This document shows positions 4,112-55,790 of a stretch of DNA of 64,000 nucleotides, in pieces. The position numbers and the translations under genes are program-made. The notes under the pieces are model-generated. The model was not told the origin of the DNA and did no database searches. It was given only the letters and a program-made list of their open reading frames with translations. The stretch comes from Azolla caroliniana (Eukaryota > Plantae > Polypodiophyta): positions 11,718,001-11,782,000 of the forward strand of contig JBHGNT010000016.1 in NCBI GenBank assembly GCA_043228905.1, written 5' to 3'. Numbering within the stretch: the first letter of the stretch is position 1; each line of letters starts with the position of its first letter.

Positions 4112-4558
4112 TGTCATGATATGGCAAGACTCGAACCCATGACCTTATGGTATATGGGTCGAGCTCTTAACCATCACACCATCTATTGTAATTTGTAGAA
4201 TATTATTTTCATTTATGCTTTATTATAAGAAATTAATGTATATTCCAGATTTCTCTGGAACATTCTAGAAGCTTTAGGACTACTCCTGAGAGCACTATAA
4301 AAGGAGGCACAAGGCATTGTTTTGAACCAAATTGGTTCAACGCCAATCTTAAGCCTCTTAGCCACTTTGTACTTATCCTTCACATAATATATTAGCTGTT
4401 ATCATTATCTCTCTCTCTCTCTCATCCTCGTTATCTCTCTCTCCTCTTCTCTCTCTCTCTCTCTCTCGGGAATCTTACGCAGTCCCGTCCTCTTAGTACT
4501 AATAGTACTTCTCTTCTTTAGTACTAATTCTCTCTCTGCTTTAATACTATTCCTGATA
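4112..4558 (+). repeat. 5' LTR of element B
   Basis: TGTCATGA...TCCTGATA; TATAAAA 4296-4302; matches 14454-14749 and 35484-35928. Confidence 0.92.
4123..4183 (-). promoter_or_regulatory. tRNA-like Pol III internal promoter (A box + B box) inside the LTR
   Basis: Minus strand TGGTGTGATGG (4181-4171), a 33-nt spacer, then GGTTCGAGTC (4137-4128). Confidence 0.6.
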
Positions 4559-4560
4559 GT

Positions 4561-22378: not shown

Positions 22379-23613
22379 TGATGGGATCAATTCGTAGATC
22401 AGTGAGGAAGATATGTTGAAATGTACAAACAAAATGTGAAAACAATAGATACAATGCACACACTTTTACATGGAAACCCTAAACGAAGAAAACCACGGGA
22501 ACCGAGATTCTACTATATCAAAAATATACACGACAGAGTAAGTTCTGCAAAGTGTAATAGCTACACAAGGATCTTGGCATCTAACCTCACTCAATTATGG
22601 CACCACTCACAATCTCTCTCACTATATTCTGCACTTTCTGTTCAACTCTAACTTGAGTTCTACTCTTTGTGTTTTCCCTAAGTGTATTTATACTTACACA
22701 TCATATGGGCTATTTACAAATGTAGCCTCTACCACTATTATTATTATTATTATTATAGTAATAAGAGTAACAGTTAATTAGCCGGTTAGTCAACTAGCCA
22801 ACTCCTATGTTGACTATCCAATCAGCTCAACTAGTCGCCGGGTCTTCGACTTGGATCACTTATACAATGTCATCGACTCTCTTAGTCGACTCTTCTTGTC
22901 ATCGACTGTCAACTCTCAGCCCGACTAGTTGGCTACTCCTTGTCTTTGATTGTCGGCTCGAACATTCAGCTCCTCCCACATGAGGGACATATTCCTAACA
23001 AACTCCCCCTTCACTCCTGTGGGAGGGAGTCAACTAGTCCCATCTTTTGTCAACAGACTCAAAGTTTTTCTATTGGTAGGTTCTTCATGAGCATGTCGGA
23101 TCCATTGTCGTCAGTATGGATCTTCACGAGGATAAACTCCCCTTCATCCACTTTCTCTCGCAACCAGTAATACCTTCTCTGTATATTCTTGGTCCGGTAG
23201 TGGTATGCAACGTTCTTGGCTAGATGTATGGCGCTCTAATTATCACAGTGGAGTCGGAATCACACTTGCTTCATTCCTAGTTCACTGAGAAAATTTCTCA
23301 TCCAAATCAGCTCTTTGCCAGCCTCTACCATTACCATATACTCTGACAGGAACTCAACGCTCCTTATGCGCAATGCTCGGACACAACCGAGCTTAAAATC
23401 ATACACAGAAAAATGGGAATGAATGCACGACACAAGAGAAGAGACGAGTACGCAGGATGTTTACGTGGAAAACCCAAACTAAGGGAAAAACCACGGCAGC
23501 CCACAGGCTGCAAACTATCACTATGCTAGAATGTACAACAATGAGTTCACGGAGGCAACGACCTCGTGCTCACGATCCTCGCCATAGGCGGCGGTTACAA
23601 CAGAGGCAACGAC

Positions 23614-23654
<41 letters not shown>

Positions 23655-25752
23655 CATGGTTACACGCTATCTCTCTTCTTGCACCAACAAGAATAACAAC
23701 AACTTCAAAAGTTTGCCCTAAGTCATATTTATACTAATATGACTTTTCGGCTATTTACAAATATAGCCATGATGGACTCTCAGAATATTTACGAATATGT
23801 CTCTTCATCCGGTGAGCACTTTTCACCGGGTCTACACCATCCGGCTCTCCGTAACCAGGTACTCCTCATCCGGTTCTCACCGGGTCTGTACCATCCGGCT
23901 CTCCGTAGCCGGGTACTCGTCATACGGTTCTTCTCCCTTCCCATCCGGAGGGACCTGTCTCCCAACAAACTCCCCCTTCACTCCGGCATGGGGTGTCTTA
24001 CTAGTCTGATCCGCTTCCGGCATGCATCCAGCTTGTCGGGTATCAACACTTTGGTCAGCATATCTGACCCGTTCTCGGCTGTGTGGATCTTCGTCAGCGC
24101 GAACTCCTGGTCATCTACTCTTTCCCGGATCCAATGATGCCTTCGCTGGATATGCTTCGTCCGGGAATGGTAGGCCGCATTCTTAGCAAGGTGGATGGCA
24201 CTTTGACTGTCACAATAAGGCCGGTATTCATCTTGCCGAATACCGACCTCTCCAATGAAATCCTTCATCCATAATATTTCCTTGCCGGCTTCCACAGCCG
24301 GCATGTTCTCCGCCTCCATGGTTGACAACACAACCGTCGTCTGCAGCCTCGACTGCCACGAAACAACTCCCCCTGCATATGTCATTACATACCTGGATGT
24401 GGACAAGCTGGTATCCACATCAGCCGACATGTCGGAATCGGTAAAACCGTCAAGTTGAGGTTTTCTGGAGCCGAATCGAAGACACATATGCGAAGTGCCC
24501 TTCAAGTAACGGAGTATCCATTTGACCGCATTCCAGTGCTCCTTGCCGGGATTGCTCATGAACCGGCTCACCAATCCGACTGCGTATCCTATATCCGGTC
24601 GGATACACACCATTGCGTACATCAAGCTCCCGATAACCGGCATATGGAATCTTCATCATATCCGCCTTCTCTACTTTCGTCTTCGGGCTTTGCTTACCGG
24701 ATAGCCTGCAGTTTGCCGGAAGTGTCGATCCGACTGGTTTCGCATCTGACATGTTGAACCGGTGAAGCACCTTTGTCACGTACTTGTCCTGTGACAGCCA
24801 TAACTGCTTCACTGACCGGTTCCGGATAATATGCATCCCCTGCATCTGTCTTGCCGGACCCAGGTCTTTCATTGAGAAAGTCCGGTTGAGAGCCTTCTTC
24901 AGCATCCGTATTTTGACTTGGTCCCGTCCGATGATCAACATGTTATCCACGTACAGAAGGAGTATCAGGAAGTCGCCTCCTTCGAACTTCTTCACAAACA
25001 CGCATAGATCGGCCTGCGTCTTGTGGTACCCTTGATCGGCCATGAAGGAATCGAACTTCCGGTACCATTGTCGGGGGGCCTGCTTCAACCTGTAGAGGCT
25101 CTTCTTCAACCGGCATACCAGGTGCTCCTTCCCTTTCTCCACGAATCCTTCCGGTTGCTACATGTAGATCTCCTCTTCGAGGTCGTCGTGAAGGAATGCC
25201 ATCTTCACGTCTAGCTGCTCTACCTCGAGGTCCATGCTTGCCGCTATACTCAGCACCGTCCGGATGGAGGTCATCTTTACTACCGGGGAAAATATCTCAT
25301 CAAAGTCCATGCCCTTTTTCTGCTGGAACCCCTTCACAACGATCCTGGCTTTGTATCTCGAGGGGTTGCCGGCATCTCCCGGTTTCAACTTGTACACCCA
25401 CTTGTTTCGGAGTGCCCGCTTTCCTTTCGGCAACTCCACCAATTCGTACATATGGTTCTCATGCAGGGAATCCATCTCATCCTGCATGGCACTTAACCAT
25501 TTGCGGTTGTGGGTGTCATTCTTCGCTTCTTCGAAGCTTTTCGGCTCCCCCTCATCGGTCAGCAGAACATGCTCTGCATCCGGAAATCTCCGGGGCACCC
25601 TTCTCTCTCTGAGAGGATATCTCCGTCTTCGGGCTTCGGTAACCGGCTCCCCCATTTGCTCTTCATCTGAATCTGATTCGGGGTCTTGGCCGGTTTCGGT
25701 TTCAGCTTCCTCTACTTCTTCTTCAGCCTGTTCGGTATCCTCACCATAACCG

Positions 25753-28603
25753 TGTTAAACACAGCGCTCGGCCACAACCGAGGAATAGGATCAACTCACT
25801 GAAAACAGGAAATACAAAATGCGCGAAGACAATAGAGAGAAGAGTACACAGGATGTTTTACGTGGAAAACCCTAAATGGGAAAAACCACGGGAGTCCTCA
25901 AACTCCAACTATCACTATAAACAGAGATGTACAATGGTGAAGCTACAAGGCAACAACCTTGAGCTCACTGTCTTCGCCACAGGCGGCGGTAATACACAGA
26001 GGCAACGACCTCTTCGTCTCTCTCTCTCTCTCTCTCTATCTCTCGGCTGCTCACTTAGCTCCCTCTAAGTGGAAAACAGAAAAATGAGTAACAACTACAA
26101 AAACTGTTTGCCCTAGGTCATATTTGTACACATATGACTTTCGGGCTATTTACAAATATAGCCTCAAGGGCCCTTGGCAAACATATTCACAAATATGTCC
26201 CCGCATCCGGATCTCTCTCCGGGTACATTCGTCATCCGGCTCCGTAGCCGGGGTCATCATCATCCGGATCTGTAGCCGGGTACTCTTCATCCTCCGGTTC
26301 CGTAACCGCAACCGGGCTTGCCGTCATTCATCTCCGGACATCCCATCCGGAGGGACCGAAATCCCAACAAACTCCCCCTTCACTTCGGCATGGGATGTCT
26401 CTGCAATCCAATCCTCTTCCGGCATGCTTCCAGCTTGTCGGGTGTGAGTACCTTGGTCAGCATATCCGACCCGTTCTCGTCCGTGTGGATCTTCGTCAGC
26501 ACGAACTCCTTGTCTTCTATCCTTTCCCGAATCCAGTGATATCTACGCTGGATGTGTTTCGTCCGAGAATGGTAGGCCGCGTTCTTCGCAAGGTGGATGG
26601 CACTCTGACTATCGCAGTAGAGCCGGTACTCCTCCTGCCGGATACCGAGCTCTCTAATGAAGTCCTTCATCCATATTATTTCCTTGCCGGCTTCAACAGC
26701 TGCCATGTACTCCGCCTCCGTGGTTGACAACGCAACCGTCTTCTGCAACCTCGACTGCCACGAAACGGCTCCCCCTGCATATGTCATTACATACCCAGAT
26801 GTAGACCGGCTGGTATCCGCATCAGCCGACATGTCCGAATCGGTAAATCCATCGAGTTCGGGCTTACCGGAGCCAAATCGGAGGCACATGTTCGAAGTGC
26901 CCTTTAAGTATCGGAGTATCCATTTGACCGCGTTCCAGTGCTCTTTGCCGGGATTGCTCATGTACCGGCTCACCACTCCGATTGCATATCCTATGTCCGG
27001 TCTGGTACACACCATTGCATACATCAAGCTTCCGACGGCAGAGGCATATGGTACTTTCATCATGTCCTCCTTCTCAGCCTTTGTCTTGGGGCTTTGCTTG
27101 CTGGACAACTTGCAGTTTGCCGGGAGGGTTGACCCGACCGGTCTTGCTTCCGACATGTTGAACCGGTGAAGCACCTTTGTCACGTACTTCTCCTGTGACA
27201 GCCACAACTGCTTCTTCTTCCGGTCCCAGATGATGTGCATCCCTAGTATTTGCCTTGCCGGACCCAGGTCCTTCATTGAGAAGGTTCGGTGAAGCGCTTT
27301 CTTCAGCATCCGTATCTTGACCTGGTCCCGTCCGACGATCAACATGTCGTCCACGTACAGGAGGAGTATTAGAAAGTCTCCTCCTTCGAACTTCTTCACA
27401 AACACGCAGTGATCGGACTGCGTTTTGTGGTACCCTTCGTCGGTCATGAAGGAGTCGAACTTCCGGTACCACTGCCGGGGAGCCTGCTTCAGTCCGTAAA
27501 GGCTCTTCTTCAACCGGCATACCAGGTGCTCCTTCCCTTTCTTCTCGAATCCTTCCGGTTGTTGCATGTAGATCTCTTCTTCGAGGTCACCGTGAAGGAA
27601 TGCCGTCTTCACGTCCATCTGTTCTACCTCGAGGTCCATGCTTGCCGCTATGCTCAGCACCGTCCGGATGGAGGTTATCTTCACTACCGGGGCAAATATC
27701 TCGTCGAAGTCGACGCCCTTCTTCTGCTGGAACCCCTTCACCACGATCCTGGCTTTGTATCTCGGGGGGTTTCCCGCATCTCCCGGTTTCAGCTTGAACA
27801 CCCACTTGTTTCGAAGTGCCCGCTTTCCTTTCGGCAACTCCACAAGTTCATATGTGTGGTTCTCATGCAGGGAATCCATCTTTATCTTCCAGTCGGCGTA
27901 GTTCTGTGAGTTCAACACCATCATGCCCGGAGGCCCACTACCGACGCCTTCCATTTTCTGTGTTAACCTCGGCTCTGATACCACTTTGTTAAACACAGCG
28001 CTCGGCCACAACCGAGGAATAGGATCAACTCACTGAAAACAGGAAATACAAAATGCGCGAAGACAATAGAGAGAAGAGTACACAGGATGTTTTACGTGGA
28101 AAACCCTAAATGGGAAAAACCACGGGAGTCCTCAAACTCCAACTATCACTATAAACAGAGATGTACAATGGTGAAGCTACAAGGCAACAACCTTGAGCTC
28201 ACTGTCTTCGCCACAGGCGGCGGTAATACACAGAGGCAACGACCTCTTCGTCTCTCTCTCTCTCTCTCTCTATCTCTCGGCTGCTCACTTAGCTCCCTCT
28301 AAGTGGAAAACAGAAAAATGAGTAACAACTACAAAAACTGTTTGCCCTAGGTCATATTTGTACACATATGACTTTCAGGCTATTTACAAATATAGCCTCA
28401 AGGACCCTTGGCAAACATATTCACAAATATGTCCCCGCATCCGGATCTCTCTCCGGGTACATTCGTCATCCGGCTCCGTAGCCGGGGTCATCATCATCCG
28501 GATCTATAGCCGGGTACTCTTCATCCTCCGGTTCCGTAACCACAACCGGGCTTGCCGTCATTCATCTCCGGACATCCCATCCGGAGGGACCGAAATCCCA
28601 ACA
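25753..28603 (-). mobile_element. Short copia element H (2851 bp) lacking most of gag, protease and integrase
   Basis: 617-bp LTRs 25753-26369 and 27987-28603; perfect TSD AACCG; PBS 27972-27983; PPT 26370-26380. Confidence 0.96.
26380..27954 (-). CDS. Gag N-terminal peptide fused in frame to complete copia RT-RNase H (524 aa)
   Basis: Uninterrupted ORF from the ATG at 27954: MEGVG...NYADWKIKM|DSLHENHTYELV...YVDD...RNase H. Confidence 0.88.
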   Translation of the reverse strand: MEGVGSGPPGMMVLNSQNYADWKIKMDSLHENHTYELVELPKGKRALRNKWVFKLKPGDAGNPPRYKARIVVKGFQQKKGVDFDEIFAPVVKITSIRTVLSIAASMDLEVEQMDVKTAFLHGDLEEEIYMQQPEGFEKKGKEHLVCRLKKSLYGLKQAPRQWYRKFDSFMTDEGYHKTQSDHCVFVKKFEGGDFLILLLYVDDMLIVGRDQVKIRMLKKALHRTFSMKDLGPARQILGMHIIWDRKKKQLWLSQEKYVTKVLHRFNMSEARPVGSTLPANCKLSSKQSPKTKAEKEDMMKVPYASAVGSLMYAMVCTRPDIGYAIGVVSRYMSNPGKEHWNAVKWILRYLKGTSNMCLRFGSGKPELDGFTDSDMSADADTSRSTSGYVMTYAGGAVSWQSRLQKTVALSTTEAEYMAAVEAGKEIIWMKDFIRELGIRQEEYRLYCDSQSAIHLAKNAAYHSRTKHIQRRYHWIRERIEDKEFVLTKIHTDENGSDMLTKVLTPDKLEACRKRIGLQRHPMPK

Positions 28604-30057
28604 AACCGGCTGGTCCCTCGAGTGCTAACCGGTCTCTTGCCGGTTGGGACTGTTCATCGTAGAGTCGATCCTTACCGGTCGACTCGGAGTTCATTATCTT
28701 CTTCTCTGACTCCCAGCTGGCGAGCATCTTGTCCTCCATGAACATAATATCTCGGCTCCGGAATACCTTCTTGTCGACCAGGTCCCACACTCGGTATCCG
28801 AACTCATCGTCACCGTAACCGAGGAATATGCATGGCCGGGTCTTTTGATCTAACTTTCCTCTCCGGTCCTTAGCTACATGCATGTACGCGAGACACCCGA
28901 ACACCTTCAAATGCCGGTAGGATACTTCCTTACCGGTCCATACTCTCCATGGCCTGTCTCCGTCCAAGGGTACTGAGGGTGATTTGTTTATCACATATGT
29001 CGCCGTCGACAGTGCCTCAACCCAAAACTTCTTGGGTAGTTTTGCATGCGCCAGCATACTCTGGACCCTCTCCATTATGGTCCGATTCATCCTCTCGGCC
29101 AGTCCGTTTACTTCCGGCGTCTTTGGCACGGTAAATTCGAGCCGGGTTCCCTTCGAGCGACAGTACTCTTGGAACTGCCCCCGGTATTCACCTCCGTTAT
29201 CTGCTGGACCGCCTTCAGCTTCCGGCCAGTTTCTCTTTCCACTCTCGCGTGGAGCTCTCTGAAGACGGATAGCACCTGATCCTTCGTCTTCAACGGTGTG
29301 GCCCACAGCTTCTGGCTGTGGTCATCTATGAATGTCACGAAGTACTGCGCTCCGGCATGTGACTTCGTGTCTACTTGATACACATCCGTATGCACCAACT
29401 CCAGTGGTGCATTACGTCTCATCGGTGGCCTTGGTAGGAAGGAGGTCCGGTTTTGCTTACCGGCCAGACAATCAGTGCACTTCTCCAAGTGCACGTTCTT
29501 CACTGGAATGAGGCTGTCGTCTGCAAGCCTCTTCATCCCCTTCTCGCTCATATGACACAGCCTCTTGTGCCACAGCTCACCGGCAGTGTCGGATGCCACG
29601 TTCACTTCTTCCGGACATAACCGAGCATTCATCAGGTACAGTGTGTTGACCTTCTGGGCCCGAGCCACAATCAGGCTCCCTTTGCTGAACTTCATGACAC
29701 CGTTCCGGATGCTACCCGTGTAACCTTCATCATCTAGCCGACCGGCTGATATCAGGTTCAGACGAACCTCCGGAACGTGTCGGACATCCTTCAGCAACAA
29801 CTTGCATCCGGTTGGTGTTGTCAACCACACATCTCCTATGCCGACAATTCGGCATGTACCTTCATTCCCCATCCGGACACACCCGTGATCACCGGCTGAG
29901 TAGGATGAGAAGCATTTCCGGTCCGGGGTAAGGTGGAACGACGCTCCGGAGTCTACCACCCAGGTCATCACATCGCCAGCAAGGTTTATCTCACTCTCCT
30001 CGGTGATGAGCATCAACTCTTCTTCACTTGCCGCGATTGCCGTCGTTCCCTTCCAGT

Positions 30058-30249
30058 CCGTCCCCCTCCGGTCTTTACCGTTCCGGTCCGGGGTCCGCTT
30101 CGAATCGGTACCATTGGTTTCCTTGTCTTTTCGGAAATGCCGACAGTTCTTTACCGTCCCCCTCCGGTCTTTACCGTTCCGGTCCGGGGTCCGCTTCGAA
30201 TCGGTACCATTGGTTTCCTTGTCTTTTCGGAAATGCCGACAGTTCTTTT
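30058..30249. repeat. 96-bp in-frame tandem duplication in gag of F
   Basis: KNCRHFRKDKETNGTDSKRTPDRNGKDRRGT occurs twice; D and J have a single copy. Confidence 0.9.
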
Positions 30250-31273
30250 GGAATTGTCCCGGCTTGCCGCAATAGAAGCAAGTAGGCCTCCCCCTTGACT
30301 TTGACCGTGTCCCCGACTTCTCCCGGTTCTGGGGACTACGGTTTCTATGTCTTCCACGTTCCGATTCGGTAAGGAGCGCTTTGGAATCAGAGCTCGTATC
30401 TTTATCTTTCTGACACGCGTCCTCATCTAGCAGGCTTGACTTTACTCTTGCTAGGGATAACCGTTTTCCTTCCGGCCCGGCGTTGCCCAAAGTGACAACC
30501 AACGTCTCCCAGCTATCAGGGAGGGAACCGAGCTGGAGCAGCGCTAGTACCTCATCGGCAAGAGGTACTTCCAATGATGTTGCCTGATGGATCAACCCTT
30601 GGAAGGCATTCATGTGCTCCGCCATGCTGGAGCCATCTTGGTACCGGAGTCTTACTAGCTTCCGGAATACCGAAACCTGATTGACAACATTTTTGTTTTT
30701 AAACATAATGCCGATCTTCTCCTAGAGCTCATGAGCCTTGCTCTCTTCATTGAATTTGTTGTATAGGCTCATGTTGATGAAGCACCGTATGTACGTCGTT
30801 GTCTTCATGTGCATCACCTCCCATATCGTGGCGTCGATTTTGTCCAGTTTCTTGTCCCCGAACTGAACCGGGAACCAAAGATCTTTAACCACGAGCATGT
30901 CCCTCATCTTCGACTTCCACACCGAATAGTTGGAGCCGGTGAGCTTGAACATGCCTCCCAACGAATCGTCCATTTTCTGAGCCGTTTTTGCTCTGATACC
31001 ACTTGACAGGAACTCAACGCTCCTTATGCGCAATGCTCGGACACAACCGAGCTTAAAATCATACACAGAAAAATGGGAATGAATGCATGACACAAGAGAA
31101 GAGACGAGTACGCAGGATGTTTACGTGGAAAACCCAAACTAAGGGAAAAACTACGGCATCCCAGAGGCTGCAAACTATCACTATGCTAGAATGTACAACA
31201 ATGAGTTCACGGAGGCAACGACCTCGTGCTCACGATCCTCGCCACAGGCGGCGGTTACAACAGAGGCAACGAC

Positions 31274-31312
<39 letters not shown>

Positions 31313-32825
31313 CACGGTTACACGCTATCGCTCTTCTTGCACCAACAAGAATAACAACTTCAAAAGTTTGCCCTAAGTCATATTTATACTAATATGACTT
31401 TTCCGCTATTTACAAATATAGCCATGATGGACTCTCAGAAACATATTTACGAATATGTCTCTTCATCCGGTGAGCACTTCTCACCGGGTCTGCATCATCC
31501 GGCTCTTCGTAGCCGGGTACTCCTCATCCGGTTTTCACCGGGTCTGTACCATCCGGCTCTCCGTAACCGGGTACTCCTCATCCGGTTCTCACCGGGTCTG
31601 TACCATCCGGCTCTCCGTAGTCGGGTACTCGTCATACAGTTCTTCTCCCTTCCCATCTGAAGGGACCTGTCTCCCAACATACTCTGCCTCTATGGTCAAC
31701 AAGGCCACAGACTTTTGCAGTCTTGATTGCCATGACACTGCTCCACCTACATAGGTCTTCATGTACCCAGGAGTGGATCGACTTGACTCTACATCGATCG
31801 ACTTGACTCTACATCCCCCGACATTTCCGAATTGGTAAATCCTTCGAGCACGGATTTTTCAATTCCAAAACCTTGAGGTGCTTTTTAGGTACCTGAGTAT
31901 CCCTTTGAAAGCTGTCGAGTGTTCTTGTCCTAGATTACTCATATATCGTCGTACTGTTCCCACAACATCAAACTGATGACGGTCGAGCCATATGGTACTT
32001 TCCTCATTTCAACTTTCTCCTTTTCACTCTTTGGGCATGCTTAGCATTCAACCTGTAGTTTGTCGGCAACATAGAACCCACTGGCTTTGCTTCCGACATG
32101 TTGAATCTTTCTAAGATCCTTGTCACATATTTCTTTTGTGACAACCACAACACATTCTTAGTTCTATCTCGAACGATGTGCATCCACAAGATCTATTTAG
32201 ATAGTCCAAGATCTTTCATGGCAAACGACTTTCCCAAAGCTTTCTTCAAGCTCACGATCCTCTTCATGTCTTGTCCGACTATCAACATGTCATCCACGTA
32301 TAATAAGAGAATCAAGAAGTTTGCTTCATCATACCTTTTGACGAACACACAGTGATCTGCCTATGTTTTGTGGAACCTATGTTCCAACATGAAGGAACCT
32401 TTTCACTCATGTAGTCATGCCTCTTATGCCATAACTCTCTGCTTGAGTCGGTTACCACATTTGCATTCAACTTGCACAGTCGGGCATGCATCATATATAA
32501 TGTGCCCTCTTTCTGTGCTTGGACCACAATCAGATTTCCCCGACAAAACTTCCATTTGCCATTTCGGAAGCTACCACTATAGCCTTCATCATCCAATCTT
32601 TCAGTTGATATCAGGTTCAATCTTATATCGGGGACATGTTGAACTTCCTTTTGAGTCAGTCGACAACCTATCAACGTTTTCAAGCATACACTTCCTATGC
32701 CGACTATCTTGCATTCTTCGTTATCTCCTATCTTTACAGAAGCACTCTCTCGAGGGAGTTATATGGAAAGATGCACCAGAGTCAATCACCTAGGTGCACT
32801 CTTCTCTTGCAAGATTTGCACTTGT

Positions 32826-35058
32826 TGTCACGACCCAAGCTTCAAAGACGATGTTGATTTGGAAGAAAAGAATATAATAACAAAGAAGAAGACAATAATA
32901 GGACAAAAAGACAATAATTTCTATTACCGAAAACCAAGATTTCAAGGTTGCTGAAGACTGGTGTTAAACCGAAATGGTTCAATACTAAGAAGATCTTCGA
33001 CTAATATAGTGTACATCGGATTGCGCATGATCGCCATTTGGCATACATGTTATGTGCCACTTGGCATACACGCATGCATGCTATTTGGTGGTCACTTACT
33101 GTGTCTAGTGCCCCTAATTCTTGAATAATAATAATATGAAAATACATTTATTAAGATAAATATGTGTAATGGTTAGAGTGTAAGACCGTTGCCTAAAAGT
33201 ACAAGTTCGAATCTTGATATTGACATTTTGTGACATCATCCTCCTTTGGCGACGAGTTCCATGAGTGGCAATGCATGAACTAGGTTTTGGTTTATGGGGA
33301 TAACGAGGATGAAAATCTTGTATAAGTTTAGAGGCATTAATGATGTTCGTTGCAGGTTCCCATGTTCAATCCGCAGGCGTGTATCCAAGACAATCTAGAT
33401 AATATAGCTTATTGTGGATGATCTTGGAGTCCAAAATAGCTTCTACTTCATATTGGGGTCCTTCAGCAAACTGAACAGGAGGTAGTGGTGGAATAACCCG
33501 ATTTGGGATAGAACTTGATGTCCATGGTTCTAGCAATGAAACATGAAATACTGGATGAAGACGCATATGTGAAGGTAGGTCCAGATGAAATGCAACATCG
33601 TCCACGTGATGACAGATTACAAATGGACTTAGACGTTGGAAATCCAATTTGTTACATGGTCGAGTAGTTTTCACATTACGACGGAATAACCATACATAAT
33701 CACCAACTTTAAACTTAGGGTCCTCAAGTCTAGAATCTAAGTGATGTTTATCTGCCACCTTCTTGTACTTGGCTTGAGGATGAAGCAAATTATAGGAAAG
33801 GTTGGCTTGAATTTCTTTGAGTTGTTTTAGACAATCCTTGACCACGAGATTGTTTGGGACTTTTGGACATTCGAGCATCATCCATCGAGGATGATATCCA
33901 GTGTTTCCAAAGAATGGAGTGAATCCCGTAGAAGAATGGATTGAATTATTGTAAGCAAATTTTGCCATATATAAGAAATTCATCCCATCATCTTGTTGAT
34001 AGTTGATAAAGCAACAAAGATATTGTTCTAATGTTTGATTTGTGCGTTCTATTTGACCATCATTTTGAGGATGGTAGCTTGAAGATAGTTTACGAGAAAG
34101 TCGAAGGATCTCAAGTAAGTGTATCCAAAACTTTGCAATAAATTCTGGCCCACGATCACTAATGATTTCATCTGGAAGGCCATGGTGCTTGAAAACTTCT
34201 TGCATAACAAGACTTGTTATTTCCTGACTAGTAAAAGTCTTTCTACATGGAAGAAAATGTGTCACTTTCGTAAAGTGATCCACCATTGTAAGAATAGCAT
34301 CATAGCCTTCAGAAGATGGGAGATCTATGATGAAATCGATAGAAATGGATTTCCACAGACCATTTGGAATGGGCAATGGGTGCAACAAACCATATGGTCG
34401 ATGTCGAGGCATCTTTGATTGACAACATACATCACAAGTAGAAACATAGTCTATGACAAATTGACGAACCTGAGGCCACCAATAGTTTCGGGTTATTGGC
34501 TCTAATATTTTCAAAACTCCGAAATGTCCAGCTAATGGTGAATAATGGCAATGTTGCAAGACTTCAAGTCAAGAAGGTTCATCAGGAATATAAGTACGTT
34601 TGTTTCAAAAAAGCAACCCATCATGCCCATTGAAATTCCCATAATCCATGCGAGAAAACTTGGAGCGTGAACAAGAAGCATGATCTGGAACAATGTGGTC
34701 TAAAATATCTTGTGCAAAATCATCTGAACCAATGCTCGAGCAAATAGAATCAAGAAATTTTGAATCTAAATTTGTCTTAGAAACCAAGATTAAAACATTA
34801 TTGAAGACTGGTTCAACGCAAAATATCAATATCAAGATTCGAACTTGTGACCTTTAAACAATGCTAGTGTACATCCGATCGTGCATGATCACCATTTGGC
34901 ATACATGCTATGTGCCACTTGGCATACATGCACGCATGCCATTTGGCGGTCACTTACTGTATCTAGTGCCCCTAATTCTTGAATAATAATAATATGGAAA
35001 TATATTTGTTAATTAAGATAAATGGATGTAATGGTTAGAGTGTAAGATTATTGTGACA
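32826..35058 (-). mobile_element. Gypsy chromovirus G (B-related), internally deleted
   Basis: 3' LTR 32826-33235 (TGTCAC...GTGACA); PPT ~33236-33248; integrase + chromodomain ORF 33366-34559; rearranged 5' LTR ~34802-35058; TSD cttgt/cttgc. Confidence 0.88.
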
Positions 35059-35319: not shown

Positions 35320-38300
35320 AGGGTCCGACGATCAATATGTAACCCACATACAACAGGAGTATCAGGAAGTCTCCTCCGTTGAACTTCTTCACAAATACGC
35401 AGTGGTTGTCCTGTGTCTTGTGGTATCATTGGTTGGTCATGAAGGAGTCAAACTTCCGGTACCATTTCCAGGGAGCTTGTTGTAGTCATGATATGGCAAA
35501 ACTCGAACCCATGACCTTATGGTATATGGGTCGAGCTCTTAACCATCACACCATCTATTGTAATTTGTAGAATATTATTTTCATTTATGCTTTATTATAA
35601 GAAATGAATGTATATTCCAGATTTCTCTAGAACATTCTAGAAGCTTCAGGACTACTCTTGAGAGCACTATAAAAGGAGGCACAAGGCATTGTTTTGAACC
35701 AAATTGGTTCAACGCCAGTCTTAAGCCTCTTAGCCACTTTATACTTATCCTTCACATAATATATTAGTTGTTATCATCATCTCTCTCTCTCTCATCCTCA
35801 CTATCTCTCTCTCCTCTTCTCTCTCTCTCTCTCTCTCGGGAATCTTACACAGTCCCGTCCTCTTAGTACTAATAGTACTTGTCTTCTTTAGTACTAATTC
35901 TCTCTCTACTTTAGTACTATTCCTGATAGCTGTAGTCAATATAAGATCTTCTTCAACTAGCATACCAGGTGGTCCTTCCCTTTCTTGACAAATCCCTCCA
36001 GTTGTAGGAACGTCACCGTGTAGATCTCTTCTTTGATGTCACCGTGTAGGAACGTCGTCTTGATGTCTACTTTCTCTACCTCGAGGTCCATGCTCGCCCC
36101 TATGCTCAAAACAGTCCGGATGGATTTCATCTTGACTACCGGGGCAAAGATCTCGTCGAAATCCACTCCCTTATTCTGCTGGAAGCCCTTCACCACTATC
36201 CGAGCTTTGTATCTTGGTGGATTTCCAGCATCTCCTGGTTTTAGCTTGCACACCCACTTGTTCCGGAGCGCTCTCTTTCCTTTTGGCAGCTCCGTCATTT
36301 CATATTTGTGGTTCTCATGCAGGGAATCCATCTCAACCTGCATGGCACTTAACCACTTGCGGTTGAGGGTGTCTTTCTTTGCTTAGTCGAAGCTTTCCAG
36401 CTCCCCCTCGTCGGTTAGCAGCACATGCTCTACATCCAAAAATCTCTAGGGGGGCTCTTCTCTCCCTGAGAGGATATCTTCTTCTCCCTTAGTTCTCGAC
36501 CACCGGTTCCTCCATTTGTTCTTCATCCAAATCCGATTCGGGGTCTTGTCTGGTCCCGATGTCCGATTCTTCTTCTTCTTTGATCAGTTCGGTTTCTTTT
36601 CCGACTCTGACCGGTTCGTCAAGTGTCATTTGGCTTCCGGCCGGATGAGTCCTTGTATCTTCTAACCGATCTCTATCGATCGACCCGAAGTCCACTATCT
36701 TCTTCTCCAACTCCCAGTTGACAATGTTCTTGTCTTCCATGAAGACTATGTCTCAGCTCCGGAATACCTTCTTGTCGACCAAATCCCACACTCGATAGCC
36801 GAACTCATCATCACCATATCCAAGGAATATGCATGGTCGGGACTTCGGATCCAACTTTGCTCTCCTGTCCTTTGCTACATGCACATAGGCAAGACAACCG
36901 AACACATTCAGATGCTAGTAAGACACATCTTTACCGGTCCATACTCTTTGTGGTGTGTCTCCGTCCAGGGGTGCTGAAGGTGATCTGTTAATCACATAGT
37001 TTGCCATCGTCAACGCCTCAGCCACTTCTTAAACACCTTAGCATGTACAAGCATACTTCAGACTCTCTCCATTACGGACTGGTACATCCTTTCGGCCAGC
37101 CCGTTTAGTTCTGGCATCTTCGGCACGGTGAATTCGAGCTGGATTCCCTTCAACCGGAAATACTCCTCGAACTTCCCCCAGTATTCTCCTCCATTGTCCA
37201 CTCGAACCACCTTCAGCTTTCGGCCGATTTCCATTTCCACGCTCGCCTGGAATTCCTTAAAGACAGATAATACCTGGTCCTTCGTCTTCAGTGGTAATAC
37301 CCACAGCTTCCGGCTGTGGTCGTCTATGAATGTCACGAAGTACTGCGATCCGGCATATGACTTCGTGTCCACTTGGCATACATTGGTATGCACAAGTTTC
37401 AACGGTGGTCGGGTTCGGAAAGAGGTTTGGTTTTGTTTGCTGGCCAAAACATCGGTGCACTTCTCAAGCTACACGTCTTTCACCTCTATAATGAGGTTAA
37501 CTTCGGCAAGTCTCTGTGTTCCCTTCTGGCTCATGTGGCACAACCTCTTGTGCCACAGCTCACCGACAGTGTCGGATGCCACGTTCACTTCCTCCCAACA
37601 AATCCAGGCATGCATCAGGTACAAAGTTTTGATCTTTCGGGCTCGGGCCATGATCAGGCTTCCTTTGCTAAACTTCATGACTCCGTTCCGGATGCTACCC
37701 ATGTAACCTTCATCATCCAACTGATCGACTAATATCAGGTTCAACCGAACCTCCATAACATGTCAGACATCCTTCAGCAGCAACTTGCACCCGGTTGACG
37801 TTGACAGCAACACATCTCCTTATGCTGACAATTCGGCATGCACCTTCATTTCCCATCCGGACACAACCGTGATCTCCAGCTGTGTACGATGAGAAGCATT
37901 TCCAGTCGAGTGTCAAATGGAACGATGCTCCGGAGTCGTCTCATCACTGACAAGATGCAGCTCATTTTCCTCGGTGATGAGCAGCAGTTCTTCTTCACTT
38001 GTCGTGATTGATATCGTTACTTTCCGATCCAAACTCCTCCGGGCCAGACCCTTATTCGCGTCGGCATTGTCGGTTCCTTTCTCCTTCCAGAAGTGTCGGC
38101 AATTCTTTTGGAAGTCCTCTGGCTTCTCACGGTAGAAGCAAGTGGGCCTCCCCCTTGACTTCGACCTCATCCCTGATTTGTCCCAGTTCTGGGGACTCCG
38201 ATTCCGGCCTCTTCCCCAATTATGGTCGTCTTCCATAACTAAGGCCTTCGAATCGGTTCCAAACTCCTGGTCCTTCCTGCGAGCTTCTTTGTCTAGCAAA

Positions 38301-46309: not shown

Positions 46310-48318
46310 TGTGAAATGCTCTCAAGAATTGCCCCCTTTCATTATGTCTCAAGTTACATTTTATAGACTCTCTCTTAGCGTGGAGGGTGTTCTCCCGCTC
46401 CAATTAGCTCTACTAATTATGGGGCTTGGTGGGGGCCTAGTTTGGGTGTGGTGCATGAGGCTTGGTAGGGGCCTAATTTGGGTGTGGTCTATGTGTGGTG
46501 CATGGGGCTTGGTAGGGGCCTAATCTAGGTGTGGTCCATGTGACCACCACAATTCCCCCTTGTAAAAAAAAAGTTATTGTGCAGTCGAAGTGCGACGAGG
46601 CGTGGACGACGGTTCTAGACGGGGGGATGACACAGGCGTGGGCGTAGGCATGAGTGTGGGCGGGGGCGGTGGTAGTTGATGGAAGGGCTTCATGCGAGAC
46701 TGGTGAGCAAAGGTAGGACGGTTGTTGGAGGCGCGGCGGAGCAGGTATGTAGTGTCGTGTATCTGCTTTTGAACTTCGAAGGGACTGATCCATCGGTGCA
46801 TGAGCGATTCGTTGAGACCGCGACGACGGATGGGGAAGTAGACGAGGACTTTGTCACCGACGTGGTATTGATGGTCGACACGGCCTATATCGTGTTGTCG
46901 TTTTTGGCGTAGTTGTGCCTGGTGCAGGTTGCTCGTGATGGCTTTGCGGAGGAGGGGCTGGAGTTGTTGTAGGTGGGACCACCAAGACACTGCGTGAGCG
47001 TGGAGTTGTGTGGTTGGTTGCGGGACTGCCACTTCTGGGGGTAAGCGCGGGTCCCTTCCGTAAAGGGCCCGAAATGGGAGCTCAGAGAGGGAGGCAGCGT
47101 CAGCTAATTGGACGTTCTGCTTCTGTTGGTGATTCTGCCACTTTCGGTAGTGACGCCGAATGTGGCCATAGTTGTTGCAGTAGAAACATTTGGGGCGTCC
47201 CTGGCTGTCTCGTTCGGGCAATGCACGCTTGGCACGTAATTGCGCATTCTGGATGTCGATGTCCATGGGAGTGACGGCTGGTATAGTGTTTGTATGATCA
47301 TGACTGAGATTACCTGGTGTGTGCATGTCGTGCGCGTCTGCAGCTTCGATGCGTTGGGCAGTGAGGATGGCTTCGTGTAGTGTCGTCGGGCCTTGATCGT
47401 GTACACGGCGGCGGAGGTCATGTCGTATACACGGCCAGAAAAAAAACAACTTCATGTCCTCCGACATGTTGGCGTCAGCCCAGCGTAGGATCTGCACAAA
47501 ACGAACCGCGAACTGGGTGATGGGTTCGCGTGGTTGTTGGGTAATTGACTCAAGTTGTTGTAGGGCCGTTTGGCGGGAGTCTTGATGAGCAAAATTCCGA
47601 ATCATGGCTGCCCGTAACAGATCCCAGTCGTTGCGTGTCTCTTCGGGTTGTTGTACAAGCCATGTTGTCGCGATATTCTCGAGGAGTGTCTTCATCTCCA
47701 TTGCCTTCCGAGGGTGTGGCCACTGGTGGTAACTGGCCACCATTTCGAAATGATCCAGCCAAGAGAGGACGTCTTCCGATGGTAGGCCGGAGAACGGTTT
47801 TGGGCGAACTCGAGAGTCCGGGAGATTTTGTTGTGGCTCGGATCGTGCTGAAAGAAAGGACAACATGGCTTGGTTAGTATGGTTAACTTGTAAAATGATG
47901 TTGGACAGAGCTTGAACCAGTTGGTCGATTGGCGATGTGGGCTGGTGTCCTTGATTGTGTTGTAGGAATTCCGGATTCATCGAGTTTGCGTTGTCGTCGT
48001 TGTTGTCGTGTTGCATCGTGGCGGGCGTTGTTGGGGTCGTGAGTTGGGGTGGCTTTGCCCGTCTTCTCCACCAAGATGTGAAATGCTCTCAAGAATCGCC
48101 CCCTTTCATTATGTCTCAAGTTACATTTTATAGACTCTCTCTTAGCGTGGAGGGTGTTCTCCCGCTCCAATTAGCTCTACTAATTATGGGGCTTGGTGGG
48201 GGCCTAGTTTGGGTGTGGTGCATGAGGCTTGGTAGGGGCCTAATTTGGGTGTGGTCTATGTGTGGTGCATGGGGCTTGGTAGGGGCCTAATCTAGGTGTG
48301 GTCCATGTGACCACCACA
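46310..48318 (-). mobile_element. Short gypsy-type element K (2009 bp), no PR/RT/RH/integrase core
   Basis: 242-bp LTRs 46310-46551 and 48077-48318 (one difference seen); 4-bp TSD GTAT; PBS TGGTGGAGAAGACGGGC (48073-48057, tRNA-Ala-like); PPT 46552-46561. Confidence 0.94.
46574..48016 (-). CDS. Gag fused to the integrase C-terminal (GPY/F) domain, 480 aa
   Basis: PKPFSG...WLDHFE capsid-like region, CFYCNNYGH knuckle, then PFRALYGRDPRLP...RQKRQHD...VGDKVLV...WISPFEV. Confidence 0.82.
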   Translation of the reverse strand: MQHDNNDDNANSMNPEFLQHNQGHQPTSPIDQLVQALSNIILQVNHTNQAMLSFLSARSEPQQNLPDSRVRPKPFSGLPSEDVLSWLDHFEMVASYHQWPHPRKAMEMKTLLENIATTWLVQQPEETRNDWDLLRAAMIRNFAHQDSRQTALQQLESITQQPREPITQFAVRFVQILRWADANMSEDMKLFFFWPCIRHDLRRRVHDQGPTTLHEAILTAQRIEAADAHDMHTPGNLSHDHTNTIPAVTPMDIDIQNAQLRAKRALPERDSQGRPKCFYCNNYGHIRRHYRKWQNHQQKQNVQLADAASLSELPFRALYGRDPRLPPEVAVPQPTTQLHAHAVSWWSHLQQLQPLLRKAITSNLHQAQLRQKRQHDIGRVDHQYHVGDKVLVYFPIRRRGLNESLMHRWISPFEVQKQIHDTTYLLRRASNNRPTFAHQSRMKPFHQLPPPPPTLMPTPTPVSSPRLEPSSTPRRTSTAQ

Positions 48319-52984: not shown

Positions 52985-53225
52985 TTTCAATCACATGGCA
53001 TAAGCATAAATACATTACCCCCATTCCAATATAGCTTGGATTGACCCATCTAAACATGACCAAAGCAGAAAAGAATAGAGTGATCCAAACTGGTATTATT
53101 AACTTGGAAAACAAGATAACATCGATCGCCCCAAAATATCACTTGATAGGAAGATGGCACATTATAAAACACCTTTTACACACATCAGAGGATGGATTCA
53201 TCATCAGGCCATCATATAAGGATGC
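52985..53225 (+). mobile_element. LINE fragment homologous to ~54830-55070
   Basis: SHGISINTLPPFQYSL...HTSEDGFIIRP is shared with the downstream LINE. Confidence 0.8.
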
Positions 53226-55790
53226 CATATATTGTATCAAATACAAAATATAAAATACAATATATATGGAAATGGCTAAACTAATTACACAAAACTAGCA
53301 TAAAACCTGGACCAAGAGAGGATAAAGGCCCCAAGGCCTTTTTTTGTTTATATTTTGTCCCATCTATGTGAAAGCTCCCTTTGAGAGCTTTCTAGACATA
53401 TATCTTCACTATATATTTGCCCCCAATTTGAAGGGTTATAGGCATTTACATTATCTTTATAATTTTTGGTCATTGGCCATGTGTGAACATGGCCAAATGA
53501 CCTAAAAGTTACTTATCAATAAAAAATGGTCCCAAATCTCAAATAACAAGATAAGGACTTTTGGCAGCAAGGGTTTCCTCTCCATTTTTCTGTATAGTTT
53601 TCTCTACTATAGGACAATGATGCTTGGCCATGATGCCAAGCAACTATAGGACAATCATGATTGGCCATTACTTGGCTAAACTATATGGCTCGATTCTAGA
53701 ATCAGAATTGAGTATATGGGCAGAGTGGAATGGCTGCCGTTCAGTTGGACAGGCAGGCTTTCGAAAGGGGTTCACAACTTTGGATCACACATTGACCCTC
53801 CAGGCCCTTATTGAGGAGGGCAGACCACATAATAAGAGGATTTAATGCTGCTTTGTGGATTTCCGAAACACTGTTGACACTGACACGTGCTCGGCTTATG
53901 CAGCAGCTAGAAAACCTTGGTGTTCCTACAGATATGCAATGGGGAATCTATGCACTCTATGAATCCATGTCAGGAAAAGTGCGGTCTTCTAAGGGTTTGT
54001 CAGAGGCGGTGGCTAGCACAGTCGGAGTGAAGCAAGGATGCCCACTATCACCCACTCTCTTCGGTCTCTATATAGATGAGGTATCACATTACATAGAGAG
54101 ATTCGGGGGTTCCTGGCAGGCATAGCTATACAAATATTACTATATGCTGATGATATTGTGCTGATTTCTGACTCTTCGAGGGACTACAAAGACATCTAAA
54201 TGTCTTGAACTATTTTGTATAGACAAAGGTTTGTCAATCAACATGGATAAAACTAAAGTGATGGTGTTTAACACCACTCAAGCATGGGTAACAAGATCAG
54301 AACCGGAATTCTTCTTGGGAGAGGAAAAGGTGGAATACACATGCTCCACATACCTAGGCGTAACATTTACAGGGCCTAGGTTCTCCTTACAGGAGGCTGC
54401 TTGTGCCCAACTTTGTCGTGGATATGCAGCCCTTGGTGCTCTCAAGAGACAATGTGCACATTTGCCGTTCCAAGAGCCACGAACTCAGCTATGGTTATTT
54501 GATGCACTTGTCACATCAACTCTTCTCTATGGAGTAGAAACATGGGGACTGAGTCTTAACAAGGCAAATCATTGGAAAGATTTTGAGAGACCTTTAGTGT
54601 CAATGATTGCCCGCATGATAAGGAGCAAAGCATCAGTGCCCCACGATAAAATCCGGGCAGAGATGGGAGCTGCACCTATAATCACAGAGGCATTGTTCTG
54701 AGCAGTGACATTTATCCAACGTCTTTGGGAGCTCCCTAAAGAAAGGTACCCAAGCTTGGCACTTATGTCGTCAAGACAACTGGCTAAAAATGGAGACATT
54801 CATTGTTGGTATGCTGAAATGCAGCAATGGTTCGAGTCACATGGCATGAGTATAGATGCACTACCCCCATTCCAATATAGCTTGAACTATCCCCATCTAA
54901 ATATGACCAAAGTGGAAAAAAAATAGAGTGATCCGAACTGATATTATTAACTTGGAAAACAAGATAACATGGATTGCCCCAAAATATCACTTGGTACGAA
55001 GATGGCCCACTATAAGACACTTCTTACACACATCGGAGGATGGATTCATCATCAGGCCACCTTATATAGACATACATCTATCTTACGCGTTGCGCAATGT
55101 GATAGGGCAATTGTGAACTTCATCACATCAATTACAAATTGAGGTAAGCAGATATACACGAATACCTCTAGAAGAAAGAATTTACCAATTGTGTCATCAA
55201 GGAGTGGAATCTGAAGAACACTATGTTTTTCACTGTAGTGTCTTTTATAAAATCAGAGGGGGATACCATTGCCTCATTAAACAAGGCTTTGGCCCGCTAC
55301 GCAAGGTAATGGAATATGAAGACCAATGGTGCCTAGGACTTTTTTTGCTAGAGCTCAAGAGACATCGGCAAAAGTTGTTGAAGAATACAGCCACACAAGG
55401 TCATCCACAAAGAACAATCACAACTTTCATTAGGCCCATCACTCCTACTAATGCTACAAGTCAATCAAGGGATACACAAATGGGATCCCGACCAAGACAT
55501 AACAAAGGGGTTACAATTGATCGGGCAATAGTAATTTGTTTTGCACGTAGGCCCCAGCCCTAGGGATCGGCAACGGTTCGGTTTAGGCTTAGCCAGTTTG
55601 GCCTGATCCAAGACAAACCGGCTAAGCCTAAACCATTTACGAAATCTCAAACCTGAGCCGAGCCCAGCCACAAACCGGTTTAGCCTAAACCGGTTTGTGA
55701 ACCGATTTGGTAAATGGCTTGTAAACCGGTTTCCAAACCTCCCTCTCTCTCTCAGATGATCCACTATATACTATACATTGTACAAGCTCT

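What the first reader, a model, noticed from the sequence alone, without database searches (positions are those of the whole stretch)
25753..28603. RT/RNase H-only LTR element with an intact in-frame fusion ORF
Seen: complete cis signals (LTRs, PBS, PPT, perfect TSD) flank a single stop-free 524-aa ORF. About 26 gag codons are joined at ...AAG|ATGGAT (~27875-27881) to the region just upstream of RT. I counted 4 differences in the 617-bp LTRs, while all longer relatives here (D, F, I, J) are broken. Known: non-autonomous LTR elements usually keep no ORF (TRIM/LARD) or gag only (TR-GAG). Inference: either a chance microhomology (AGATG) deletion or a replicating subfamily that supplies RT and borrows Gag/PR/INT.
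Basis: partly seen in the sequence, partly recalled or inferred. Interest (0 to 1): 0.72.

Follow-up and report, generated by a model that had tools for sequence, protein, structure and literature searches.

The report
Internally deleted copia retrotransposon keeping RT
A young copy of an abundant plant jumping gene has lost about 2.4 kb of its middle between two 7-base repeats, leaving an unbroken reverse-transcriptase reading frame; this is likely an ordinary one-off deletion, and the layout has already been named in sunflower.

Summary
Observation confirmed: 617-bp LTRs (4 differences), 5-bp TSD, PBS, PPT and one stop-free 524-aa ORF. It is a Tnt1-like copia element whose codon 26 of gag is joined to pol at a 7-nt direct repeat (AGATGGA). 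Against intact 1,340-aa relatives (85% identical) 816 codons are missing: capsid, zinc knuckle, protease, integrase and the conserved first ~30 residues of RT. Undeleted forms of both junction sides occur in 4 of 4 sequencing runs laid, the gag side at high depth. An open in-frame fusion is unsurprising: about half of such repeat pairs are in frame and a copy this young stays stop-free 55-74% of the time (joint about 0.3). The layout is published as TR-RT-RH; gag-less elements (Tos17, BARE-2) and an in-frame gag-pol fusion (IAP 1delta1) are known. No second copy of the junction was found, but no genome or raw reads were available, so a small mobilised subfamily is not excluded. The scan noted similar deleted copia elements in other genomes, not on this DNA. 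Low interest.

The parts
27987..28603 (-). 5' LTR, 617 bp; carries T at all four sites that differ from the 3' LTR
27972..27983 (-). Primer-binding site TGGTATCAGAGC (initiator tRNA-Met type; same 12 letters as given for Tos17)
   Evidence: PMC3977881
27877..27954 (-). First 26 codons of gag (matches the N-terminus of intact polyproteins P0274/P0277, of P0237 and of L001)
27875..27881 (-). Deletion junction: single copy of the 7-nt direct repeat AGATGGA; 816 codons (about 2.45 kb) missing relative to P0274
26380..27954 (-). 524-aa ORF: 26 gag residues + N-terminally clipped RT (YVDD at 200-203) + RNase H
26370..26384 (-). Polypurine tract, overlapping the stop codon
25753..26369 (-). 3' LTR, 617 bp
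25748..25752 (.). Target-site duplication AACCG, left copy
28604..28608 (.). Target-site duplication AACCG, right copy
23344..31620 (-). Host: older, broken copia element of a sister subfamily (LTRs about 96% alike) into whose pol region the element inserted; right end approximate

Best explanation
This is a recently inserted Ty1/copia (Tnt1-like) retrotransposon that lacks about 2.45 kb between two AGATGGA repeats, likely through a single microhomology-guided deletion, and its open RT-RNase H frame is likely a chance leftover. The deletion would have happened either by a template jump of reverse transcriptase while this copy was being made, or by end-joining repair after insertion; one copy cannot tell which. 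The RNA keeps LTRs, PBS and PPT, so it could in principle be carried by Gag, RT and integrase of full-length family members; the fusion protein itself is predicted to contribute nothing, having no capsid domain to enter the particle, no integrase tail and a clipped RT N-terminus. Shown: anatomy, breakpoints, size of the loss, existence of undeleted relatives. Inferred: single event, neutrality of the ORF, non-function of the protein.
For: Intact 1,340-aa polyproteins P0274/P0277 share the N-terminus and are 85% identical over the last 500 aa; fusion = residues 1-26 + 843-1340. The undeleted gag continuation is also in P0237 and in DNA locus L001, which carries AGATGGA at that place; 4 of 4 window relatives carry the repeat at the pol side. 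In 4 of 4 runs laid, contigs stop at 27875 (6-10 contigs per run) or 27881 (23-32 per run) and go on into undeleted sequence; an exact gag-side 48-49-mer has depth 18,788 (X1) and 6,759 (X5), roughly 200-450 times the shallowest contigs (rough, not a copy number). 300 of 608 repeat pairs of 7 nt or more in the window's intact copia ORF are in frame (0.49); chance of no stop at the LTR divergence 0.55-0.74; joint 0.27-0.37. The lost RT block holds columns 96-100% conserved in 50-65 homologues (G6, E7, P8, E13, W23, M27, E30 of P0016), is modelled at pLDDT 86-88 and aligns from HIV-1 RT residue ~24 on; the gag piece in its place has pLDDT 27-65. Of 21 ORF sites listed (40 of 200 rows shown), the 9 where the window's letter is rarest give 4 amino-acid changes, two at columns invariant in 65 of 65 homologues, against 0 of 12 among commoner alleles (one-sided p about 0.02 by hand; biased subset). 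Ty1 RT needs the integrase C-terminus for activity (PMC8487063, passages).
Against: Copy number of the junction could not be measured: no genome is held and only contigs were available. All catalytic motifs of RT and RNase H are present. AlphaFold2 continues the first RT helix with the gag residues 16-25, and the fusion model matches solved RTs as well as the undeleted one (Z 14.7, rmsd 4.2, 385 aligned against Z 14.8, rmsd 4.5, 382 aligned for 8wus_E), though the alignment placed the gag piece on the native block. Departures at conserved columns (6) lie within the range of the 65 homologues (0-20, median 2). 17 of the 21 listed ORF differences are synonymous, as expected from the parent lineage but also from a maintained ORF. 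P0274/P0277 are close relatives from unnamed assemblies, not the direct parent.
Confidence: 0.75

Rival explanations
1. A small non-autonomous subfamily: the deleted RNA was mobilised in trans a few times by full-length relatives, like a mini-Ty1; the ORF is a passenger.
For: All cis signals are intact; Ty1 tolerates up to 5 kb of internal deletion when proteins come in trans (PMC4974528, passages); sugar beet has seven non-autonomous families with pol remnants and no gag/protease (10.64898/2026.03.01.708851, section 21); the helper family is abundant.
Against: Only 26 gag codons remain, whereas Ty1 packaging signals reach nt 237-380 of the RNA (extrapolated from yeast). The window's letter at LTR site 28057 has residual contig depth of only 153 (X1) and 71 (X5) out of 19,674 and 9,739, about what one element's two LTRs would give (weak).
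Confidence: 0.13
2. A selected subfamily in which the in-frame gag-RT fusion matters: either translation of the fusion aids mobilisation in cis (as for IAP 1delta1) or it supplies RT to partners.
For: In-frame, stop-free, catalytic motifs intact; gag residues modelled as a substitute helix; precedent of a cis-acting gag-pol fusion in mouse IAP 1delta1 (PMC6466679, passage).
Against: Frame and lack of stops expected by chance at about 0.3; capsid, zinc knuckle and integrase tail lost; invariant N-terminal RT residues lost; full-length relatives already encode RT, so RT alone fills no gap; four C-to-T changes in the 5' LTR suggest methylation (inference).
Confidence: 0.05
3. Assembly artefact: a mis-join across the 7-nt repeat inside a highly repeated family.
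For: The region is a nest of related elements.
Against: The window resolves nested elements, TSDs and LTR pairs differing at 4 of 617 sites, which points to long-range information; short-repeat-bounded deletions are the ordinary form of LTR-element decay (recalled: Devos 2002, Ma 2004; texts not held).
Confidence: 0.06
4. Retrocopy of a spliced transcript, the missing part being an intron.
For: An AG precedes the pol-side ATG in 4 of 4 window relatives; copia elements do splice (PMC9784723, passage).
Against: No GT or GC at any cut within the repeat on the gag side of the undeleted relative L001; the ends would read AT...AG, and the 7-nt repeat explains the joint by itself.
Confidence: 0.01

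Closest known systems
TR-RT-RH elements of sunflower (PMC9784723; results section and passages read)
   Same: Two LTRs flanking one ORF that encodes RT-RNase H only.
   Different: The sunflower case (1 locus) was found as a transcript; no expression is shown here. Its mobility was not assayed (the copy-number assay used 24 full-length elements). Its lineage and junction are in supplementary figures that I did not read.
Tos17 of rice (PMC3977881; first 10,000 of 16,043 characters read) and BARE-2 of barley (passage in 10.64898/2026.03.01.708851)
   Same: Copia elements without functional gag that keep pol-derived coding capacity and rely on a partner's Gag.
   Different: Tos17 keeps integrase and RT in a 1,058-aa ORF and is shown to move; this element has lost integrase and protease too and is known from one copy.
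Mouse IAP 1delta1 (PMC6466679; passage)
   Same: Internal deletion giving an in-frame gag-pol fusion ORF in an element with intact cis signals.
   Different: 1delta1 is a highly active retroviral subtype whose fusion acts in cis; here only 26 gag codons remain and no amplification is shown.
Mini-Ty1 donors (PMC4974528; passages)
   Same: Large internal deletion with LTRs, PBS and PPT retained.
   Different: Laboratory constructs mobilised by helpers; mobilisation of this element is untested.
Tnt1-like copia elements (names on hits P0042 and P0079; lineage name Tork recalled, not tested)
   Same: RT-RH 57-85% identical to plant copia polyproteins; Met-type PBS; inferred full length about 5.3 kb.
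   Different: Lacks 816 of 1,340 codons.

Membership tests
Ty1/copia LTR retrotransposon | Direct LTRs TG...CA with 5-bp TSD | tested here: met
Ty1/copia LTR retrotransposon | PBS and PPT next to the LTRs | tested here: met
Ty1/copia LTR retrotransposon | Copia-type RT (Pfam RVT_2) and gag-PR-INT-RT-RH order in the undeleted form | tested here: met
   RVT_2 E 2e-75; order in P0274/P0277
Autonomous copia element | Gag capsid, protease and integrase encoded | tested here: not met
   Residues 27-842 of P0274 absent
TR-RT-RH (PMC9784723) | Two LTRs and one ORF encoding RT-RH only | tested here: met
   RNase H fold at model residues 365-502, Z 11.3, rmsd 3.1, 123 aligned to 4e19_A
TR-RT-RH (PMC9784723) | Transcribed (how the sunflower case was found) | not testable with these tools
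   No RNA data could be laid
Non-autonomous retrotransposon family (TRIM/TR-GAG/BARE-2 sense) | Several insertions sharing the same deletion, with different TSDs | tested here: inconclusive
   One copy in the window; contigs cannot show rare forms; no genome
TR-GAG | Gag domain retained | tested here: not met
   Retrotran_gag_2 starts at residue 27 of P0274, i.e. at the breakpoint
Tos17/BARE-2 type gag-less elements | Integrase retained together with RT | tested here: not met
IAP 1delta1-like fusion | In-frame gag-pol fusion from an internal deletion | tested here: met
IAP 1delta1-like fusion | Amplified subtype whose fusion acts in cis | not testable with these tools
   Needs a genome and a mobilisation readout
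Retrocopy of a spliced copia RNA | GT-AG (or GC-AG, AT-AC) ends of the missing part | tested here: not met

The most novel reading that the evidence does not exclude
A replicating TR-RT-RH subfamily: the deleted element has spread to several loci on borrowed Gag, protease and integrase, and its frame is kept open by selection because the first gag residues rebuild the clipped first helix of RT or because translation helps its RNA into particles. It would be the first TR-RT-RH shown to move (among the papers my searches reached) and a plant counterpart of IAP 1delta1.
Probability: 0.07. Interest if true: 0.55.

Novelty: new member of a known kind. Interest (0 to 1): 0.14.

Why it matters
As a one-off deletion it matters little: it is a clean, datable example of how LTR elements decay, with breakpoints mapped to a 7-nt repeat, and a warning that an open fusion frame in a young copy is weak evidence of function (about 0.3 by chance). 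If further copies existed it would make testable whether TR-RT-RH elements, so far a descriptive class from one sunflower locus, are mobile and whether a copia RT can work without capsid and integrase tail.

Tried and rejected
Whole-genome search for the junction: no genome held. Contigs across the junction: none of the 32 longest pieces listed (of 2,729 laid, 4 runs) bridges it, and a clean junction piece would be 53 letters, longer than any listed; contigs drop rare forms and none of the 32 pieces listed bridged this locus's own insertion ends either, so there is no positive control and this is no proof of absence; it speaks only against a very large subfamily. The depth plateau at 27883-27902 mostly ends at 27905-27906, too far for junction pieces; read as sister-subfamily gag. 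No RNA holder listed; no evidence either way. Exact 30-mer of the junction: 0 matches in metagenome contigs and viral contigs, 1 in the window; these collections hold little of this plant (the gag-side 32-mer gave 1 match). Protein searches for a second fusion: exact sequence not in the collection; residues 1-50 gave 2 hits, RT side only; longer proteins none; of 122 proteins none of those whose RT start could be located showed a gag-like stretch before it (about ten had no locatable start); of the best 150 of 549 representatives none covered query 1-60 in one stretch, and 9 were read in full. No solved copia RT by sequence. Contigs joining 25747 to 28604 (empty site) say nothing on polymorphism because the host family is itself high-copy. 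All four LTR changes in one LTR: p 0.125, not significant. Earlier findings by sequence: none. Devos 2002 and Ma 2004 are not held; cited from recall and from the reference list. Literature searches for this layout; only PMC9784723 holds the TR-RT terms.

Full report
Observation. The element occupies 25753-28603 on the minus strand. Its LTRs are 617 bp, end TG...CA and differ at 4 sites; AACCG is duplicated at both ends; a Met-type PBS and a PPT are in place; one 524-aa ORF runs 27954-26380 without a stop. Pfam finds RVT_2 at aa 32-273 and nothing else up to E 1; the C-terminal part folds as RNase H. It sits inside the pol region of an older, broken copia element in a nest of related elements 79-82% identical to it. 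LTR divergence of 4/617 gives about 0.25 million years at 1.3e-8 per site and year and up to 1.5 at slower rates (rates recalled); all four changes are C-to-T in the 5' LTR, which suggests methylation and may inflate the age.

What was lost. The neighbours have a different gag start, so the parent is not in the window. The cluster of the best protein hit holds two intact 1,340-aa polyproteins, P0274 and P0277, with the same kind of N-terminus and 85% identity over the last 500 residues. The ORF equals their residues 1-26 followed by 843-1340: 816 codons are gone, in line with 2,421-2,459 bp between the equivalent sites in three window relatives. The lost part holds the gag capsid family, zinc knuckle, protease, integrase and SH3-like tail. 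An undeleted sister element (L001) carries AGATGGA at the gag breakpoint, and 4 of 4 window relatives carry it at the pol breakpoint; one copy remains at 27875-27881. The ends do not fit splice sites.

Copies elsewhere. No genome is held. Twenty listed runs from ten studies hold part of the element. Four (two of organism A, one each of B and C) were laid as contigs. The family is very abundant. At the junction, contigs in 4 of 4 runs stop exactly at the edges of the repeat and continue into undeleted gag or undeleted pol; an exact gag-side piece has depth 18,788 in X1 and 6,759 in X5, some 200-450 times the shallowest contigs. So undeleted forms with the same gag start are plentiful. Whether the deleted form has further copies is not settled by contigs (see Tried and rejected).

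Is the open frame surprising? In the intact copia ORF of this window 300 of 608 repeat pairs of 7 nt or more and 500 bp or more apart are in frame (0.49; 48 of 86 in the element's own pol), because repeats follow codon structure. At the LTR rate about 5.6 C/G transitions are expected in the ORF, 44 of 837 such sites give a stop, and the chance of none is 0.74 (0.55 at twice the rate). Jointly 0.27-0.37, ignoring indels. Among the 21 ORF sites shown (40 of 200 rows), the 9 with the rarest window letter split 5 synonymous and 4 not, close to the neutral 0.42 synonymous share, with residues 243 and 325 departing from columns invariant in 65 of 65 homologues; the 12 commoner alleles are all synonymous. 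That is what an unselected terminal branch of a selected family looks like, but the subset is biased, the rare letters are not strictly private, and the total of 6 departures at conserved columns is within the homologues' range.

Would the protein work? The junction removes the block GEP..EA..W..M..E, whose columns are 96-100% conserved (65 of the 120 hits were aligned). In a natural homologue this block is modelled as two confident helices and aligns to solved RTs from about HIV-1 RT residue 24. In the fusion the gag residues are modelled in the same place at low confidence (pLDDT 27, 44, 65 for residues 1-30) and the model still matches RTs equally well, so folding does not exclude activity. 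But Pol reaches the particle as Gag-Pol, and Ty1 RT needs the last 115 integrase residues for activity (PMC8487063 and PMC4974528, passages). By inference the fusion could not be packaged and is probably inactive, and full-length relatives make their own RT. The RNA, in contrast, could be a passive substrate, as mini-Ty1 donors are.

Comparison. Two LTRs around a single RT-RH ORF were named TR-RT-RH in sunflower (PMC9784723; results and passages read, supplementary figures not read). Tos17 and BARE-2 lack gag but keep more of pol; sugar beet has seven non-autonomous families with pol remnants and no gag/protease; IAP 1delta1 is the precedent for a functional in-frame fusion. The element meets the structural definition of TR-RT-RH, fails those of TR-GAG and of Tos17-type elements, and its status as a family is open.

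Verdict. Real, correctly described, most likely an ordinary single deletion (0.75); passive small subfamily 0.13; assembly mis-join 0.06; functional fusion 0.05; splice product 0.01. New member of a known kind; interest 0.14.

Noticed in passing
window 55791-60731 (+): A different copia family with a fully open 1,396-aa frame (all domains) and 278-bp LTR copies with 0 differences, flanked by GCTCT: a very recent, possibly still competent insertion.
   Followed up: partly
window 46310-48318 (-): 2.0-kb LTR element, 242-bp LTRs with 1 difference, one 504-aa open frame with a Ty3/gypsy gag hit and a C-terminal part that looks by eye like an integrase tail: TR-GAG-like, internally deleted gypsy element. 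A better candidate for a replicating non-autonomous family than the finding itself.
   Followed up: partly
window 33007-35047: Repeat pair about 180 bp, 90% alike, around a 400-aa open frame with gypsy integrase domains only.
   Followed up: no
window 52991-55066: Repeat pair of about 230 bp, 87% alike, around a 178-aa frame without Pfam hit that looks by eye like a LINE fragment.
   Followed up: no
window about 30056-30249: Exact tandem duplication of about 96 bp inside the host element's gag-protease region, keeping the frame.
   Followed up: no
window 4113-35929: A gypsy element with 96% alike LTRs (4113-4559, 35485-35929) appears to enclose the whole nest of copia insertions.
   Followed up: no
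L001 1394-2065: Sister subfamily with a nearly identical gag start but an LTR that matches only over its last ~140 bases: LTRs turn over faster than gag in this family.
   Followed up: partly
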